Below are positions 12,114-23,264 of a stretch of 64,000 bases of DNA, piece after piece (position 1 is the first letter of the stretch; every line of letters begins with the position of its first letter). The notes beneath the pieces are model-generated. The model was given only the letters and a program-made list of their open reading frames with translations, did no database searches and was not told where the DNA came from. The DNA is taken from NCBI RefSeq assembly GCF_009914755.1, contig NC_060939.1; one strand, given 5' to 3'. The stretch is from the human T2T-CHM13v2.0 reference genome, Homo sapiens. Both the position numbers and the translations under genes were made by a program.

Positions 12114-12300
12114 CTCGCCTCTGGCCCTTGGGAGCCAGCCCTCGTGCGGTCCCCGTGGTCCGGCTCGCCCTCCCCGGTTAGGGGAGCGGTGGCGAGGCGC
12201 CGTCGCTGCCCTGCCGCCTGACCTCCCTGAGCCTGGGCCCTCACCGGGACCGCGGAGGCGGCAGCGCCACTGGCGGGGATGGTAAAGATGGCCGGCAGTA
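12114..12300 (-). other. MTHFS: Candidate alternative non-coding first exon of MTHFS
   Basis: Strong donor GAG|gtaagc with the exon ending at 12114, inside the CpG island upstream of exon 1. The 5' end cannot be determined from sequence. Confidence 0.55.
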
Positions 12301-12690: not shown

Positions 12691-13791
12691 ATACATAATC
12701 GGGAACACTGCTAAAGCAATAACTGTAGTGTAAAAGCCAAATTTTGCGGGTTTCTAGTGTGAATGTATTCCAGGTAATAGTGCCCACATAGGTACTTCCT
12801 GTTATAACCATCAGTGACTGTTCATTCCCACCACTCAGCTCTGATTAAAACACAAAAATGAATTAAAACTAAAAGCAGTTGGGGGGTGGGTGAGGCACTT
12901 GCAGGAAGAGGTAAAAGGAACTGTTAAGTCTTAAACTGCTCCCAGTAGACAGGCGCCTCAGATGGCATAGACGGTTGCCTCTCAGATGTGACTTCCTAAG
13001 AAAACCAGAGCTGTCTCTGCCAAAAATACGTCCCTACTGACCGCCCCAGTGTCTTAATCCCCACCGTTAAGAATCACACCTCCTAGGTAAAGCATTAATT
13101 AAGTGCCCGGTGAGAATGCACATGGCTTGAGAGGGGAGTTCTGGCTTCTTTATGGAATCTATCAACAGCTTCCAGGGAAAGCTAATGCAAGTCCCAGGGG
13201 GACTGTGTTGTAAGAAAAAGGGAAGGCCAGGCAGGTACAGCGTATACATAGTGCAATTAGATTTGCTGACCTAAAAGTTAGAACACGAGGTCTAACAAAC
13301 TACGTACTTTTCTAATCTGTTCATTTTTACCAAAAAATAAAAATAAAAATTAACACTAGCTCCACGTTGAATCATTTACCAATTTTCTTTGTTCAGAATA
13401 TCCCAGAGTATCCTGCATATCAGGTTGCCATATCCATCAACCCCAAATGGCAAGCCAGAGAGAGAAGGCTGGGGAGGAGGCATCAATGGAAACTCTTAAG
13501 CAGCCAGGGGCACTGGAAACTGCAGAAAGCATGGGAAGGAAGGAGGGAAGAGGGAAGCCGACCTGAGTCTGCTTCTAGCCTGAGTCCGCTTCTCAGTCTA
13601 GTCTGCAGTCTAGCCTAGTGACACAGAAAAGGACTTTTGGGGTAATGGCACACCTTAAAAGTCTGCCTGGGGCAGAAAAGACACCGCCTTCCTGGTCATC
13701 ATCCCATAATTAATTGCCTGGATCCTGTGTTGAGCTTTTACCCTTTGGCTGAATTTCCAGCCAGACTCCAAAACTGAAGACAAAAATGGCA

Positions 13792-13882
13792 TATAGAGAA
13801 AAATACATACAATTTATTCATTAAATAGGGACAAAATTTCTGTAACTCTGGAAGGTCAAGTTACATCATCAAAGTTGTTTAT
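13792..13882 (-). terminator. ST20: ST20 3'UTR and polyadenylation signals (BCL2A1 3'UTR-derived)
   Basis: Minus-strand AATAAA at 13878-13883 (overlapping the stop codon) and at 13813-13818. Sequence matches the recalled BCL2A1 mRNA 3' end (...aataaattgtatgtatttttctctata). Confidence 0.75.
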
Positions 13883-14077
13883 TTAAAAGTAGAAGTATGT
13901 GTTGGCAATCGTTTTCGTAAGAGTCAGAAAAATTAGGCCGGTTTCACAATATAGAGTGTCCTTTCTGGTCAACAGTATTGCTTCAGGACAGAAGAGCATT
14001 TCACAGATCTTTCCTGTAACTTCTAGAAAAGTCATCCAGCCAGATTTAGGCTCAAGCTTCTTTACAAAGCCATTTTC
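13883..14077 (-). CDS. ST20: ST20/HCCS-1 terminal coding exon; paralog of the BCL2A1 last exon
   Basis: Acceptor ctcatag|GAA; translates ENGFVKKLEPKSGWMTFLEVTGKICEMLFCPEAILLTRKDTLYCETGLIFLTLTKTIANTYFYF* (64 aa plus TAA). With the 15-aa Alu exon it gives a 79-aa protein. Confidence 0.92.
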   Translation of the reverse strand, partial: ENGFVKKLEPKSGWMTFLEVTGKICEMLFCPEAILLTRKDTLYCETGLIFLTLTKTIANTYFYF

Positions 14078-14189
14078 CTATGAGAGAATAAATTTAACAT
14101 TTTAAAAATCATTGGAGATTAAGTATGCTGGAATAAAAAGCAAAAATATTTTCATTTAAATAATGCAAATAATCTTCTATCCCTCTAAA

Positions 14190-14460
14190 GGAGCATTGTG
14201 TAACAGAAACACAGTGTGGCCTACATCTGTAATTTTAATTTTTGGTAGCCACATTTTAAAAAGTACAAAAATAGGAAAAATTAATTTTTAAGATATATTT
14301 AGTGATAATGATTTCTGTATGTAATCAATGTCAAATCACTAATGAGATAGTTTTTTTCATAACAAACCTTCAAAATCTCATGAGTATTTAGTACTTACAG
14401 CGTATCTTAATTCAGACTAGCCACATTTTACTACCATAGTGAACAGCAAGCACAGCTCTA
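14190..14460. mobile_element. MER3/MER33-like hAT DNA transposon relic
   Basis: Motifs 'tagccacattttaaaaagt' and 'agtacttacagcgtatcttaattcagactagccacattt'. Confidence 0.55.
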
Positions 14461-16010
14461 GAGGATAAAAAGTCTTTTTGTTCTTGTTCTTGTTTAATTG
14501 TCCAACATTGATTTCAATGCACTTATATTTGTAATATGAATTCTATTATACTGTAAACTGCATTGTATTGAAACTCATGAGAACTCACAGTAAATCCAAA
14601 TTAAACCAATACCTTTGAAGCTATGAAAAGGTTGATGGTTTCTTTTATAATCTACTCTCTTTGTGATCGGACATAGTTTTAAAAATGTAGGATAACCCAA
14701 TTAACTGGACATTTTATTTAATTTACAATCTATAATCATAGAATCCTCACTGAAAAGTCCCTCTGAGATCATCTAGCCTAATGCTCTCTCTTAACAAATG
14801 AGGAAAGTGAGGCCCACAAAAAAAATCAGTTATCTAAGATTAGCCAAACCCTTGGTGCCTGGACCTGGATTAGAATGCAAATACCCTACTTCTTTCCACT
14901 CCATACATTTCCAAACAAGTGCCAAAATATTCGAAAATTGTTAAAATAATTTTTTCGAATGTTCATCTAGCAAACATTTGTGGCTGCATCTTACAGGTTC
15001 CAGAACCTGGGGTTACAAATGCCTGCAAGTAGCTCAGAGCAAAGTGTAACTAATATTGAAACGTAAACCAAGCATAACCCTTTGATAGTTGGGAGAGATT
15101 CGAGAGCTCTGCGGTGCCTTGGAATCATTTTATGAACATCACTGGCAAAGCAGATGAATACCACCAGCCAGGGGGATTTCATTTGAAAGACTTAGAAAGC
15201 CATTTTCTGCCTACGTAAGTGTGCGTCGTGCTCTGAGACATGCTGTCATGCCTTGACAGAGGAAGGAAACTGCCCCTCTTCTTCCTCTTTCCCTTCTGCC
15301 AGTACATACTCATAGATTACACTCTAGGGAGGTATCCACTTCATTACGCCCCTTCCTAAACACCATATTTCGCAAGCATGATGAGACCCTCTGAAATGAC
15401 TTTTATTATAACGATAATCATTGTCTATTATCATTGATCAGTTAACATGTCATATACATCAACGTCTAAAGAAAGGACAGTGAACAAAGAAAATATTGAT
15501 AAATTCAGCCAGATGAAGATTAAAAATATTTTTAACTATGAAAAACTAAAAAGAACAATAAACTAGGAAAATATTTACATATACCATGAAAGTGTTCATT
15601 CAAATGTGAGAGAAAATTCTCAGGCCCTTAATAGTTTAAAAAGGAGAGACCATTAAACAGAGAAATATAAATCATTCACAAGTATATGAGAAAAACATTA
15701 ATAGCAGTTAAAGAAATGTACATTTTAACAAAGTCTTATTTTTTTTAGACCTATTAAAGTGGCTTTATTTGATGCCTATTAAACCCTCAAAATTATTAAT
15801 AGTACCACCCACACTGATAAGGTTGCTATGATATTGTTCTATTGATATAATACTTTCGAAAAGAAAATATGTTTTCCAGTATGCTAGAATATCGTAATTA
15901 TACATACATCTTATGAACCAGTTACTCCACTGTTAGAAATTTATCATGAGGCAGTCTTCTAAAATATTGGAAGGTAGGGGGCACCAGAAAAGCATACCTA
16001 TGCTTCACTA

Positions 16011-17022
<1,012 letters not shown>

Positions 17023-17059
17023 ATACAGGCAAGTATCATGCTTTCTCACTTCTCTAAAG

Positions 17060-17850
17060 ACTATTCCTTTGTTCACTCAGGAAATATTCACTGAGCATTG
17101 GCCACATGCCAGTATCAGTTAAAGTACTGGAAACACAGTGGTGAACAAAGCATACAGGATCCGTGTCCTCACTAAGCTCACATTCTCATGGCAGACACAG
17201 ACAATAAACAGATAAGCAAATAAATATGCAATGGGATGTCCAGTCATGAAAACTATTATGAAGGCAATAAAGTTGGGCAGGGAGACAGAGAGTGATAGTG
17301 GTACTTTCTTAGATGGGTTGATCAAGGAAGACTTCTCTGAGGAGAAGAATTCCTTGGAAGGGATACCTGGGCGAAAAGAAGAGGGAAGGCAGGCGAACTT
17401 ATGGCGGAAAATTATTCCAGGCAGAGGCAACAGCAACTGCAAAGACTGGAGGATGGAGTGTGCTTAGTTTATCTAAGGAGGCTGGAGCTATGAGAACAGG
17501 AAGGGATTCGTAGAAAATGAGATTTGAGAGGCAGGTAGAGGCCAGGTCATAAAGGGCTTTGGGTAACTTCATACTCAGGATGTTGTGCTTTTGTTCCCAG
17601 GGTGAAGGGGCATTTTGGAGAGTTCTGATTAGGCCAAGATCAGATCTAATTCAAGTCTGTAACATATCACTGTGGGTACTATGTGGAAAACAAATTATAG
17701 CAGATAAAGGATGGAACCATGGAGTCTGGCAGGAGGCTACTGACAGAGTCAAGTGATTACAGCATTTCAAAGGGGCAGCCAAGGGGATTTGCTGATGGAT
17801 GGATGTAGGCTATGAGAGACAGGAGTCCAGGCTGACTCCCAAGGTTAGAG
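17060..17850. mobile_element. L2 LINE fragment
   Basis: L2 3'-end-like sequence 'ttcactcaggaaatattcactgagc...ccgtgtcctcactaagctcacattct'. Approximate. Confidence 0.6.
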
Positions 17851-18442
17851 AACTAGCACTTAAGAGAGCTTGACTGAGGGGCCCCTCGGGAGAGGTGCTT
17901 TTCTCTAACTCCTGTGTCACTATCATGCATTTCTGCCTGTCTTGAGGGTCTTTTATTTTTCACTAAATGACTTTAAAATCTCAAGTAAAAATTCAAAAGA
18001 AATAGAAAAATTTTGCCCCAAAACGTATTTAATAAAAGGATATATATGAATACTTGAGATCATAGCACCTCACTGCTAGATGTTTATATGTTTTGGAAAC
18101 GCCTTTGCCAAACTGAATGCTTAGTCAATCATCTATATGTCTCTGTGTGCCCATTTATTTGGCCTCAAATTAACCAGACTATTATTTAGGGTAAGGGGAT
18201 GACAAAGAAAAGAAAGACCTCTTGGCCTAACTCTATGACCCAAGCTTTAAAATGGTGGTTACTTGGAAAGCACCAACTCTGACTGTACGTCCTACTTTCA
18301 CAAGGGCAAAGAATTACCTATCTAAACTTCCTGGAATTTCCCACATGACTCTCATAGTTGCACAGTATTTGACAGTTTGCAAAGCACTTTTAAAAAAAAG
18401 TTTTATAATCCTTTAACTTTCCATTAAAGGTAGGTATTATTG

Positions 18443-18577
18443 TTTTCATTAAATATTATATATAATAATGTCATCATTTTCATTAAATATTATATAAAAT
18501 AATCATGTCATATCATTTTCATTAAATATTATATATAATAAATTATCATGTCATATATTATTATATACATTATATAA
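18443..18577. repeat. AT-rich imperfect tandem repeat (~3 units of ttttcattaaatattatata...tgtcat) inside a MIR
   Basis: Units read directly from the sequence. Confidence 0.8.
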
Positions 18578-19508
18578 GGAATCTGAGTCTCAGAGTACCT
18601 CAGTAACTTACCCAAGGTTATACCTCTAGTGAGTAAGAAAACCAGAGTTCAAATCTCCAGTTTCAGTGTGGCTTCACTAAATCATTCCCTCAGCAAATAT
18701 TTGTTACCTTCTATGCAACAGGTCCTAGGCATGAGGTACACAGTGATGCATTAAATAGATATGATTTCTCCCATGTGGAGCTGAGTGCCAAGCATTCTTT
18801 CTACTCCCCCAGCATATGCAGAGGAGAATGCTTCATTGAAGGGGGAGGAAGTAAGAAGATCCACCTGGTTCAAAAGGAAGGGTGATCCCAAGAGAAGAGA
18901 CACGAGTTTCATCTCATGATCATACTAATGGTTTTTAAGAACCATCCTTTCCTTATGAATGCTGGAGGCAGCCAAATGGCACTAGCTCTCCTGTCAGATC
19001 TTGTGAGAGCACATCCTCTCAGCACTTCAAATTAGGAGAGCGGACAGGAGGAAACCATGGTAAATGTGGAAGAGGACAAAAAGAGAGATGAGAAGCCACA
19101 AACAAAAGAAGGCAGGAAGGCAGGTAGGCAGGAAAGACAAGCTGATAAAAAGGAGAAAGAGAATAAGGAAAGAGATTATAAGTCCCATTACTGATAGACC
19201 AGTCTCGTTTCTTCCCATTAGGGGATCTGCTTTACATGGTAACTAGTATCTAACTGTATTTGATCATATAATTTATGGAAACTAAATATAGTCAGATTCT
19301 CTCAATGGAAGCTAGGTAATACTACTATTACTAACAACAAAAACCCTAAACTTGTACCGAGTACTCATTTTCAGGAATTGTTCCAAGTGCTTTGTTTACA
19401 TTAACTGATTTAATCCTTATACAAGTCCCAGGAGATAGGTTGCAATATTTTCCTGTTTTTACAGATGAGGAACCAAGGCTTAGGGAAGTTAAGAAACTTG
19501 TATAAGTC

Positions 19509-19854
<346 letters not shown>

Positions 19855-19937
19855 CTATACTCACATACTGCATTCTTAATACAAAGTTTCCATAAAGTCT
19901 CTGGGCACTTTTAAAATTTAATTAAATTACAGATTGT

Positions 19938-20254
<317 letters not shown>

Positions 20255-20346
20255 TTATGATCAGTGATTTCTTGAGAGTTTTTTCAGGCAAGTTAAAGCC
20301 AGTGCTCACATCTTGATAAAGTTGTGAGTGCCTCCTCTACTCTTAC

Positions 20347-20400
20347 CTCTTCTTGCGGGCCACTGACTACTAGCATAAGGAAGTGATTGTGCCATTTCCC
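20347..20400 (-). CDS. Candidate 54-nt in-frame cassette exon, paralog of the BCL2A1 'Bfl-1S' alternative exon
   Basis: ttcatttcag|GGGAAATGGCACAATCACTTCCTTATGCTAGTAGTCAGTGGCCCGCAAGAAGAG|gtaaga; translates GKWHNHFLMLVVSGPQEE. The recalled Bfl-1S tail begins GKWHNHTPMLV. Confidence 0.65.
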
Positions 20401-21329
20401 CTGAAATGAATCATTCAAGAGTAAATTCATTCATTTGAGCAGATTTGTCAACATCACTATGAAAAGAAGGTAACAGTTTTCCATGTCAGTTTGTACTAAC
20501 CCAAAAAAGCACTGCCTTTCCTTTCCTTAAGATCAATGCCTCATCTGAGCTGGAAAAGGAGCACATAGATTGCTTTGAAATGACATCTTCAAGAGTATTT
20601 ATTTCATGTCTACAACCTGAACTATTCAGGTGTTTTTTGTTTTTTGTTTTTTTAAAGAGCTTGGAAACTTTAGAAAGGCTGAGTGTGTGCACATGCAGGC
20701 AATGTGTGTATTTGTATCTACACTCGGGAGAGATTCATGCAACTGCACTCATGTTTACATGAGTGTACCACCCTCGAAAGATGAGGGTACTACTAGAAAT
20801 TCTCAGAGACAAGATTCCACAGCCTTTGCTAACAATGAGTTCCAGAAGCTCACAAAATTTATTGTGGAGAAGTTAAATTTTTAAGTAATATTTATTCACT
20901 GTCTGTGTGTTCCAAGTACTAAGCTAGGCATTGGAAATACAATCCAAAACCACATAGAGCCGGCAAACTAGTAGAGTATTTCTCTGCAGGCTCATCTGTG
21001 GTCCTCTGTGCCAGAGAACGTTTGCCTTCACCTGAAATCTACACAATGCAGCTGAAATTTCCACCAGTCCTCAAGTATAGCCTCCCACAGCCAACTAGAA
21101 GAAAACATGACAAAACATTTCACATGCTTCGCCCAGCCTCAGTCAGGCTCAGTTAGAAAGAACTAAGTTCCAGAAAGAAGATGACTAAGAAAGGGGAGTA
21201 GCTTCAGTAAGCTCTATCATGCAGGAAGGCCTTAAACAAAATGAAAAAGGCATCAAGTAAAAGATCAATAAATTTGATCGCAACAAATATTTAAACGGCT
21301 ATAATGACCGAAGACATTGTCAGCTTTAA

Positions 21330-22260
<931 letters not shown>

Positions 22261-22459
22261 TTTGGATAAAAAAATTTGCAGAATTACCACCATGTACTGT
22301 TTTTACATATACACATGTAAATATATGTATGCAAGATTTTTATGTATATATAAAATACATAAACATACATGTACATATATGTACATATATGTATGCTCAT
22401 ATAAAACATTTTACATAAAACATTTACAAAAACTTTTTTTACAAAGAAGTATTATGTTA

Positions 22460-22685
<226 letters not shown>

Positions 22686-23264
22686 AATAACTTATATTAC
22701 CAAAGCCTTAAAACCTACATTCTTTTACAGGTTCATTTTTGCTACTAAAAACTAGTGCAACAGGAGTCACATGCAATGTGCTTTGGCTAGAACAGTGTAT
22801 TGTGGTAACACAAACCATTTACATTAAGACACTACTTAATTCTGCTATTTACTGCCCAAATTGTCTTTTTCAAATATCATGTCAAAATTACACGAATTTA
22901 TATAGTTGTAGACATGTTCCTAGCAGAAGGGTAAGGGAGGCAGGGGTCTGGGTAAGTGGAAGGAGAAGGCAAGTAGCCCTTTTGGGCTACCAGGGCACCA
23001 GGACCGGGTTCCCTGGGCAATTTGGCACAGGGATTTGAATGCAGGGTGGCCTCAAAGATGGGACTGAGCAGCAGCAGCAACATCAGCGATCCAGAAAGTT
23101 CACAGGATGTGAGCAATACTGTTTTGGGTTCCTTATCTGATATTCCTAAAAAACAAAGTTGCTGTCGTTTTTCATGAAAACAGACTACATAGTTTATTTA
23201 GGTAGATACGATAAACATTTTAATAGTTACACTTGCGCAATTTCATTTTCTAAATGTAAAGTTA

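What the first reader, a model, noticed from the sequence alone, without database searches (positions are those of the whole stretch)
20347..20400. Hidden Bfl-1S cassette paralog converted from frameshifting to an in-frame 54-nt exon
Seen: intact acceptor (ttcatttcag) and donor (GAG|gtaaga) around exactly 54 nt with no stop, encoding GKWHNHFLMLVVSGPQEE. Recalled: in BCL2A1 a 56-nt alternative exon shifts the frame to make Bfl-1S (tail GKWHNHTPMLVESVAHKKRKMAL), which loses the membrane tail. Inference: a 2-nt loss (GTAGAGTC to GTAGTC) made this copy symmetric phase 0. Including it would give a 97-aa ST20 isoform that keeps the amphipathic tail, or an ST20-MTHFS isoform 18 aa longer. The ancestral splice-switch logic would be inverted. 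The ORF track does not show this exon.
Basis: partly seen in the sequence, partly recalled or inferred. Interest (0 to 1): 0.8.

Follow-up and report, generated by a model that had tools for sequence, protein, structure and literature searches.

The report
Leftover copy of BCL2A1's alternative exon
A 54-base stretch inside an intron of the human ST20 gene is a real duplicate of the small optional exon of the neighbouring BCL2A1 gene, but nothing shows that cells use it, so it is best read as a well-preserved leftover.

Summary
Window 20347-20400 (minus strand) is 54 nt, lies between ttcatttcag and gtaaga, and translates to GKWHNHFLMLVVSGPQEE.

It is the paralog of the 56-nt BCL2A1 cassette exon. 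The exon alignment gives 48 matches, 6 mismatches and one 2-nt gap, and both splice sites are identical. The exon sits at the colinear place in a ~9.7-kb partial duplication of BCL2A1 that forms the 3' part of ST20. Including it would keep the frame of both ST20 and ST20-MTHFS.

No evidence supports function:
- Exon identity (48/54) is no higher than the duplicon mean of 90.4%.
- The conserved run across the acceptor is one of 15 runs of that length or longer.
- RefSeq has no such exon and lists ST20 as a lncRNA (hub table).
- 0 of 6 primate ST20 protein models contain it.
- No paper mentions it.

All four BCL2A1 models with the cassette (two Pongo, Aotus, Cebus) are the frameshifting type. 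This favours, but does not prove, a 2-nt loss in the ST20 copy.

Verdict: a relic pseudo-exon, possibly spliced at a low level. Interest is low.

The parts
20347..20400 (-). 54-nt paralog of the 56-nt BCL2A1 alternative (Bfl-1S) exon. It is open in phase 0 and encodes GKWHNHFLMLVVSGPQEE.
   Evidence: 48 matches, 6 mismatches and a 2-nt gap against L003 8038-8093 (minus strand).
20401..20437 (-). Acceptor side: a candidate branch point (tttac, by the recalled yUnAy rule), a weak pyrimidine tract and cag. It is identical to the BCL2A1 copy.
   Evidence: The identity run 20383-20437 is one of 15 runs of 54 or more in the duplicon.
20335..20346 (-). Donor side, gtaagagtagag. All 12 nt are identical to the BCL2A1 copy.
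   Evidence: The donor matches 7 of 9 consensus positions.
12705..22453 (.). About 9.7-kb partial duplication of BCL2A1. It covers the 3' flank, the last exon and most of the intron including the cassette. It is colinear with chr15:77821705-77832681 and interrupted by copy-specific Alu insertions.
   Evidence: chain of blocks; 7987 columns, 6844 matches, 727 mismatches, 416 gap columns; 90.4% identity.
13794..14077 (-). ST20 last exon, the paralog of the BCL2A1 last exon plus 3' UTR. The acceptor and the polyA-proximal end are at the same aligned positions. A 1-nt indel after ...KICEML extends the ST20 frame past the BCL2A1 stop.
   Evidence: 290 of 307 columns identical; window 14077 maps to L003 1585; window 13794 maps to L003 1303.
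22579..22634 (-). ST20 / ST20-MTHFS exon carrying the ATG (22623). It lies inside a member of the ~300-nt repeat family that occurs at dozens of places in the window. The name Alu and its antisense orientation are recalled, not tested.
   Evidence: One search shows repeat hits at 22459-22697.
22459..22697 (.). Truncated Alu-type repeat directly next to the proximal end of the duplicon (homology to BCL2A1 fades at about 22453).

Best explanation
The 54-nt segment is the copy of BCL2A1's alternative exon that was carried along when about 10 kb of BCL2A1 was duplicated some 60 kb away in an anthropoid ancestor. The duplicated piece covered the 3' flank, the last exon and most of the intron, but not exon 1.

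The duplicate acquired an upstream promoter and an Alu-derived exon with an ATG, and became ST20. The cassette copy now lies in the 8.5-kb intron between the Alu exon and the last exon.

Its splice signals survive simply because the copies are only about 10% diverged. Its in-frame length is a by-product of a 2-nt slip at an AG-AG repeat, most likely a loss in this copy.

It is most likely a silent or only sporadically spliced pseudo-exon, not a selected coding exon.

Shown: homology, colinearity, intact signals, frame arithmetic, and no excess conservation. Inferred: the neutral history, the direction of the indel, and low or no usage.
For: - Homology and uniqueness: two places in the whole assembly; 163/181 identity, E 1e-67.
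- Colinear duplicon: window 12705-22453 against BCL2A1.
- Divergence: 90.4% identity over 7571 ungapped columns. My Jukes-Cantor arithmetic on those counts gives K of about 0.10.
- No sign of selection on the exon. The exon is 48/54 identical (88.9%), against 94/100 upstream and 38/41 downstream. The 100-column windows over it score 0.91-0.93, against a mean of 0.904 and SD of 0.056. The 54-nt identity run over the acceptor is one of 15 runs that long or longer.
- Neutral survival of the signals is expected. At about 5% change per lineage, 9 core splice positions stay intact with probability of about 0.63 (my arithmetic).
- Annotation: RefSeq has no exon here and types ST20 as a lncRNA (hub table).
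- Protein models: 8 proteins of 35-112 aa matched the ST20 last exon, and 0 of the 6 ST20-type ones (human, Mandrillus, two Macaca, Pongo, Colobus) contain the cassette. No protein of 80-2000 aa matched the cassette ORF.
- The ST20 ORF itself looks poorly conserved. The two Macaca models lack the start Met, and the models differ in length just where the human 1-nt indel lies.
- Direction of the indel: the 4 BCL2A1 models with a cassette tail (P0015, P0017, P0020, P0052) were picked by a text filter from the 120 fetched proteins of that search. All read ...LVESVA..., the 56-nt frame.
Against: - Both splice sites are identical to those of an exon that is really used in BCL2A1 (Bfl-1S; PMC3405526, passages). 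Some inclusion in ST20 or ST20-MTHFS transcripts is therefore plausible, and I could not look at any RNA data.
- The protein databases searched mostly hold projection-based models, which would not discover a new exon. Their silence is weak evidence.
- Conservation between two paralogs in one genome cannot separate constraint on one copy from constraint on the other.
- The last exon and UTR are somewhat better conserved (290/307) than the duplicon mean. Parts of the duplicate may therefore be constrained or gene-converted.
Confidence: 0.75

Rival explanations
1. The 54-nt copy is a working alternative exon of ST20 and/or ST20-MTHFS. It adds 18 residues in frame, so inclusion keeps the downstream tail instead of removing it as in Bfl-1S.
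For: The acceptor and donor are intact and identical to the used BCL2A1 exon. It is phase-0 symmetric and open, and the products stay in frame at 97 aa. The BCL2A1 final exon alone is membrane-active and cytotoxic (PMC3379997, abstract and passages). A tail-bearing ST20 isoform would therefore not be inert if it were made.
Against: - There is no exon in RefSeq, and ST20 is typed as a lncRNA (hub table).
- 0 of 6 ST20 models hold it, and there was no hit.
- There is no excess conservation.
- The exon body carries 6 substitutions, and 2 of the first 11 residues differ from BCL2A1 (T to F, P to L).
- The start codon is not conserved in the Macaca models.
- No paper holds the peptide strings.
Confidence: 0.12
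2. The polarity is the reverse. The ancestral cassette was 54 nt and in frame, and BCL2A1 gained an AG, which created the frameshifting Bfl-1S mode. The ST20 copy preserves the older state.
For: The gap lies in an AG-AG repeat, where slippage can go either way. Paralog divergence (K of about 0.10) is, by recall, close to the human-New World monkey distance. The duplication may therefore predate that split, in which case Aotus and Cebus are not outgroups.
Against: All 4 cassette-bearing BCL2A1 models, including two New World monkeys, are the 56-nt type. No New World monkey ST20-type protein was among the 8 hits. The time available for a gain on the BCL2A1 stem is short compared with the whole ST20 lineage (inference).
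Confidence: 0.1
3. Gene conversion from BCL2A1 keeps the splice sites and flanks alike, rather than neutral shallow divergence or selection.
For: Some tracts of the duplicon are 98-99% identical, for example 16517-16666 and 18755-19104. The 100 nt upstream of the exon are 94% identical.
Against: The exon itself has 6 mismatches and the indel, so no recent conversion tract covers it. Identity around it is average.
Confidence: 0.03

Closest known systems
BCL2A1 alternative exon giving Bfl-1S (Ko et al. 2003, Oncogene, seen only as a reference; described in PMC3405526, passages read)
   Same: Homologous sequence (48 of 54 aligned bases), identical acceptor and donor, the same relative place upstream of the homologous last exon, and the same first six residues, GKWHNH.
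   Different: It is 54 nt, not 56 nt, so inclusion would not shift the frame. It lies in ST20 and not in a BCL2-family coding gene, because exon 1 with the BH domains was not duplicated (no hit of 150 or more columns). Usage is documented for BCL2A1 and not for this copy.
[quoted passage not shown] 2007, J Cell Sci 120:2912. Only the title was seen, in reference lists; the paper is not held.
   Same: The same duplication event. The ST20 last exon is the paralog of the BCL2A1 last exon, with 27 of the first 28 residues identical.
   Different: As far as I could see, that literature concerns the last exon. The cassette copy in the intron was not found in print. I could not read the 2007 paper itself, so it may discuss the genomic duplication.
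Pseudo-exons and relic exons inside segmental duplications, and Alu exonisation (general knowledge, recalled)
   Same: A splice-competent-looking segment in an intron with no annotated use, and a host gene assembled from a partial duplicate plus an Alu-derived exon.
   Different: Here the relic descends from a known regulated exon, and an indel happened to make it frame-preserving.

Membership tests
Paralog of the BCL2A1 Bfl-1S cassette exon | Significant sequence homology to the BCL2A1 cassette | tested here: met
   163/181 identical, E 1e-67; within the exon, 48 matches, 6 mismatches and a 2-nt gap.
Paralog of the BCL2A1 Bfl-1S cassette exon | Colinear position within a duplicated block that also holds the last exon | tested here: met
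   seven colinear blocks, window 12705-22453.
Paralog of the BCL2A1 Bfl-1S cassette exon | 56-nt length that shifts the frame and removes the C-terminal tail | tested here: not met
   54 nt, frame kept.
Functional alternative (cassette) exon | AG acceptor and GT donor of usable strength | tested here: met
   Both sites are identical to the used BCL2A1 exon. No calibrated splice-site score was available.
Functional alternative (cassette) exon | Inclusion in transcripts | not testable with these tools
   No RNA-seq or junction resource was available. RefSeq lists no such exon (hub table). 0 of 6 ST20 protein models hold it, and there was no hit.
Functional alternative (cassette) exon | Conservation above the intronic background | tested here: not met
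   the exon is 88.9% identical against a duplicon mean of 90.4%, and the identity run is one of 15. This compares paralogs only; no orthologs were available.
Protein-coding ST20 | ORF conserved across primates | tested here: inconclusive
   the two Macaca models start with T instead of M, and the models differ in length at the human frameshift site. RefSeq types ST20 as a lncRNA (hub table). Only protein models were seen, not their DNA.

The most novel reading that the evidence does not exclude
The relic has been co-opted. In some tissue or stress state ST20 (or ST20-MTHFS) includes the 54-nt exon. This would yield a 97-aa peptide that still carries the Bfl-1-type membrane-active tail. It would be a paralog pair in which the same exon removes the tail in one gene and spares it in the other.
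Probability: 0.05. Interest if true: 0.45.

Novelty: new member of a known kind. Interest (0 to 1): 0.2.

Why it matters
The main value is annotation hygiene.
- The two exon copies share their first 18 bases and both splice sites. Short reads from Bfl-1S transcripts can therefore be mis-assigned to the ST20 intron, and the reverse.
- Any claim of ST20 cassette usage must rest on the six discriminating bases or the 2-nt gap.

It also documents how ST20 was assembled: a partial BCL2A1 duplicate, an Alu-derived start exon and a 1-nt frameshift. That supports caution about ST20 as a protein-coding gene.

If the exon were shown to be used, it would be a tidy example of an indel flipping the consequence of an inherited splice switch. 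Nothing here shows that.

Tried and rejected
- Rfam scan of 19500-23000: no family reached its gathering score, so there is no hint of a structured RNA.
It was repeated with the 45-aa contiguous genomic ORF that contains the cassette: 6 candidates, none at E of 10 or below, lengths 80-2000 only. The tool itself calls this weak evidence. Proteins of 25-79 aa were not searched with that query.
- Last-exon search: 8 hits, none with the ST20 cassette. One unnamed ORF (P0008) is BCL2A1-type, with the cassette read in another frame plus the BCL2A1 last exon. It says nothing about ST20.
- Literature: ST20+BCL2A1 gave 15 papers, 13 listed, all gene-list-type titles judged from the listing only. ST20+Bfl-1 gave 3. 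HCCS-1 / suppressor of tumorigenicity 20 / ST20-MTHFS gave 43, of which 30 were listed; none of the listed titles or abstract starts concerned exon structure. The peptide strings gave 0. Ko 2007 and Ko 2011 are not held.
- Chance explanation: rejected on homology.
- Dating the duplication against the platyrrhine split by Alu subfamilies: considered and dropped, because subfamily diagnosis would have rested on recalled consensus sequences.
- Folding the hypothetical 97-aa isoform: not done, because it would need a joined sequence.
- The first pseudo-exon scan used too strict a donor threshold (8 of 9) and found nothing, not even the finding itself. It was redone at 7 of 9.

Full report
**1. The observation**

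- On the minus strand, window 20347-20400 is 54 nt. It is preceded by ttcatttcag and followed by gtaagagta.
- It translates without a stop to GKWHNHFLMLVVSGPQEE.
- The upstream ST20 coding segment 22579-22623 is 15 codons, [15 protein letters not shown].
- The last exon opens in phase 0 with ENGFVKK....
- Splicing the pieces by coordinate gives 79 aa without the segment and 97 aa with it. ST20-MTHFS also stays in frame.

**2. Is it more than chance?**

The signals alone are not.
- A crude scan used a YAG acceptor, at least 60% pyrimidines at -20..-4, a donor matching at least 7 of 9 positions of a recalled consensus, and a length of 30-200 nt.
- In the 8501-nt intron it found 89 acceptors, 19 donors and 30 pairs.
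- Ten pairs were a multiple of three and two of those were open. One of the two is this segment.
- A first run with a stricter donor threshold found nothing, not even the finding.

Homology is what makes it real.
- A 251-nt query has two places in the whole assembly: itself, and chr15:77830497-77830693 inside BCL2A1 (90% identity, E 1.3e-68).
- The local alignment is 163/181 identical (E 1e-67).
- Within the exon there are 48 matches, 6 mismatches and one 2-nt gap at GTAG(AG)TC.
- The 36 intron bases before the acceptor and the 12 bases after the donor are identical.
- PMC3405526 (passages) describes this variant: three exons, a shifted frame, 163 aa, and a KKRK-containing hydrophilic end.

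**3. Context**

The segment is part of a colinear duplication.
- Seven blocks link window 13212-22307 to the BCL2A1 locus (only hits of 150 or more columns, out of 494, were inspected).
- The chain continues weakly to about 22453 on one side.
- On the other side it reaches 12705.
- That is about 9.7 kb here against about 11 kb at BCL2A1. Repeat insertions differ between the copies.
- Global alignment of the seven blocks gives 7987 columns: 6844 matches, 727 mismatches and 416 gap columns. Identity is 90.4%, so K is about 0.10 by my arithmetic.
- BCL2A1 exon 1 (ORF located) has no counterpart among the inspected hits.

The ST20 last exon matches the BCL2A1 last exon end to end.
- Window 14077 maps to L003 1585 and window 13794 maps to L003 1303.
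- 290 of 307 columns are identical.
- One 1-nt indel after ...KICEML carries the ST20 frame through the BCL2A1 stop into the former UTR.

The ATG-bearing exon 22579-22634 lies in a truncated copy of the ~300-nt repeat that occurs at dozens of places in the window. That copy sits directly at the duplicon edge. The name Alu and its antisense orientation are from recall.

ST20-type protein models exist for human, orangutan, Mandrillus, two Macaca and Colobus. The duplication is therefore at least as old as the catarrhine ancestor.

That Bfl1 and HCCS1 (= ST20) share a tail-anchoring domain is in print (Ko et al. 2007). I saw only the title, in reference lists, and the paper is not held.

**4. Evidence on function**

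I found none for it.
- The exon (48/54, 88.9%) is not better conserved than its flanks (94/100 upstream; 38 of 41 ungapped downstream) or than the duplicon.
- The 100-column windows over it score 0.91-0.93, against a mean of 0.904 and an SD of 0.056 over 152 windows.
- The 54-nt identity run across the acceptor is one of 15 runs of that length or more among 644 runs.
- At about 5% change per lineage, nine core splice positions stay intact with probability of about 0.63 (my arithmetic). Survival of the signals needs no selection.
- RefSeq lists no exon here and types ST20 as a lncRNA (hub table).
- None of the six ST20-type models contains the cassette.
- A search with the 45-aa genomic ORF around the cassette found no protein of 80-2000 aa at E of 10 or below (weak evidence).
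- No paper holds the peptide strings.
- The ST20 ORF itself looks unstable. The Macaca models lack the initiator Met, and the models differ in length at the site of the human 1-nt indel.

Against my reading:
- The splice sites equal those of an exon that is really used.
- I had no RNA data.
- Projection-based protein models would not reveal a new exon.

**5. Direction of the 2-nt change**

- The search with BCL2A1 exon 1 found 136 proteins at E of 1e-20 or below among 151 candidates; 120 were listed and fetched.
- A text filter picked out those whose sequence after ...GGW is not the canonical last exon.
- Four of them carry a cassette-type tail: P0015 and P0017 (Pongo), P0020 (Aotus) and P0052 (Cebus).
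- All four read ...LVESVA..., and the two New World monkey tails end as in Bfl-1S. That is the 56-nt frame.
- None shows the in-frame type.
- So the frameshifting state goes back at least to the anthropoid ancestor of BCL2A1.
- If the duplication is catarrhine-specific, these are outgroups and the ST20 copy lost 2 nt. No New World monkey ST20 model was among the 8 hits, which fits this only weakly.
- If the duplication is slightly older, the polarity is formally open.
- I put the loss in ST20 at about 0.85-0.9.

**6. Mechanism and verdict**

- This is a paralogous relic of the Bfl-1S cassette, preserved by shallow divergence inside the ST20/ST20-MTHFS intron.
- A slip at an AG-AG repeat made it frame-neutral.
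- Sporadic inclusion is plausible, because the splice sites are competent in BCL2A1.
- A selected coding role is unlikely.
- The final exon of BCL2A1 alone is cytotoxic and membrane-active (PMC3379997, abstract and passages). This explains why ST20 constructs can kill cells, but it does not bear on the cassette.
- Relative to what is known, this is a new, unannotated member of a familiar class: an exon relic in a segmental duplicate.
- Interest is low unless RNA evidence appears.
- No supplementary files were consulted.

Noticed in passing
window 22459-22697 and 22579-22634: The ATG-bearing exon of ST20 and ST20-MTHFS lies inside a truncated Alu-type repeat. One frame gives [12 protein letters not shown]... 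and the used frame gives [10 protein letters not shown].... The repeat sits exactly at the proximal edge of the BCL2A1 duplicon. The ST20 ORF is therefore Alu-derived start + duplicated BCL2A1 last exon + frameshifted former UTR.
   Followed up: partly
window 13990-14000 (last exon, after ...KICEML): A 1-nt indel relative to BCL2A1 shifts the ST20 frame through the BCL2A1 stop codon. Primate ST20 protein models differ in length just here, and the two Macaca models lack the start Met. This fits RefSeq's lncRNA label.
   Followed up: partly
window 16517-16666 and 18755-19104: These tracts of the duplicated intron are 96-99% identical to BCL2A1, with identity runs of 126, 104 and 96 nt. That is well above the 90.4% mean. 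They could be gene-conversion tracts or conserved intronic regulatory elements.
   Followed up: no
protein P0008 (unnamed source, 52 aa): This ORF reads the BCL2A1 cassette in its third frame from an internal ATG and continues into the normal BCL2A1 last exon. It differs from the human genome's reading at one residue. It looks like a gene-caller ORF on a spliced Bfl-1S-type cDNA contig. It shows that the Bfl-1S mRNA contains a downstream ORF for the free tail.
   Followed up: partly
proteins P0015, P0017 (Pongo, isoform X2, 200 aa): These orangutan BCL2A1 models include the cassette but then end ...KKSLSLLNY instead of the Bfl-1S ending. This implies a different downstream splice choice.
   Followed up: no
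window 12705-13084: The distal end of the duplicon lies only about 470 nt from the alternative first exon of MTHFS (12114-12238). The duplicate was therefore placed right beside the MTHFS promoter region. This may explain the ST20-MTHFS readthrough transcript.
   Followed up: no
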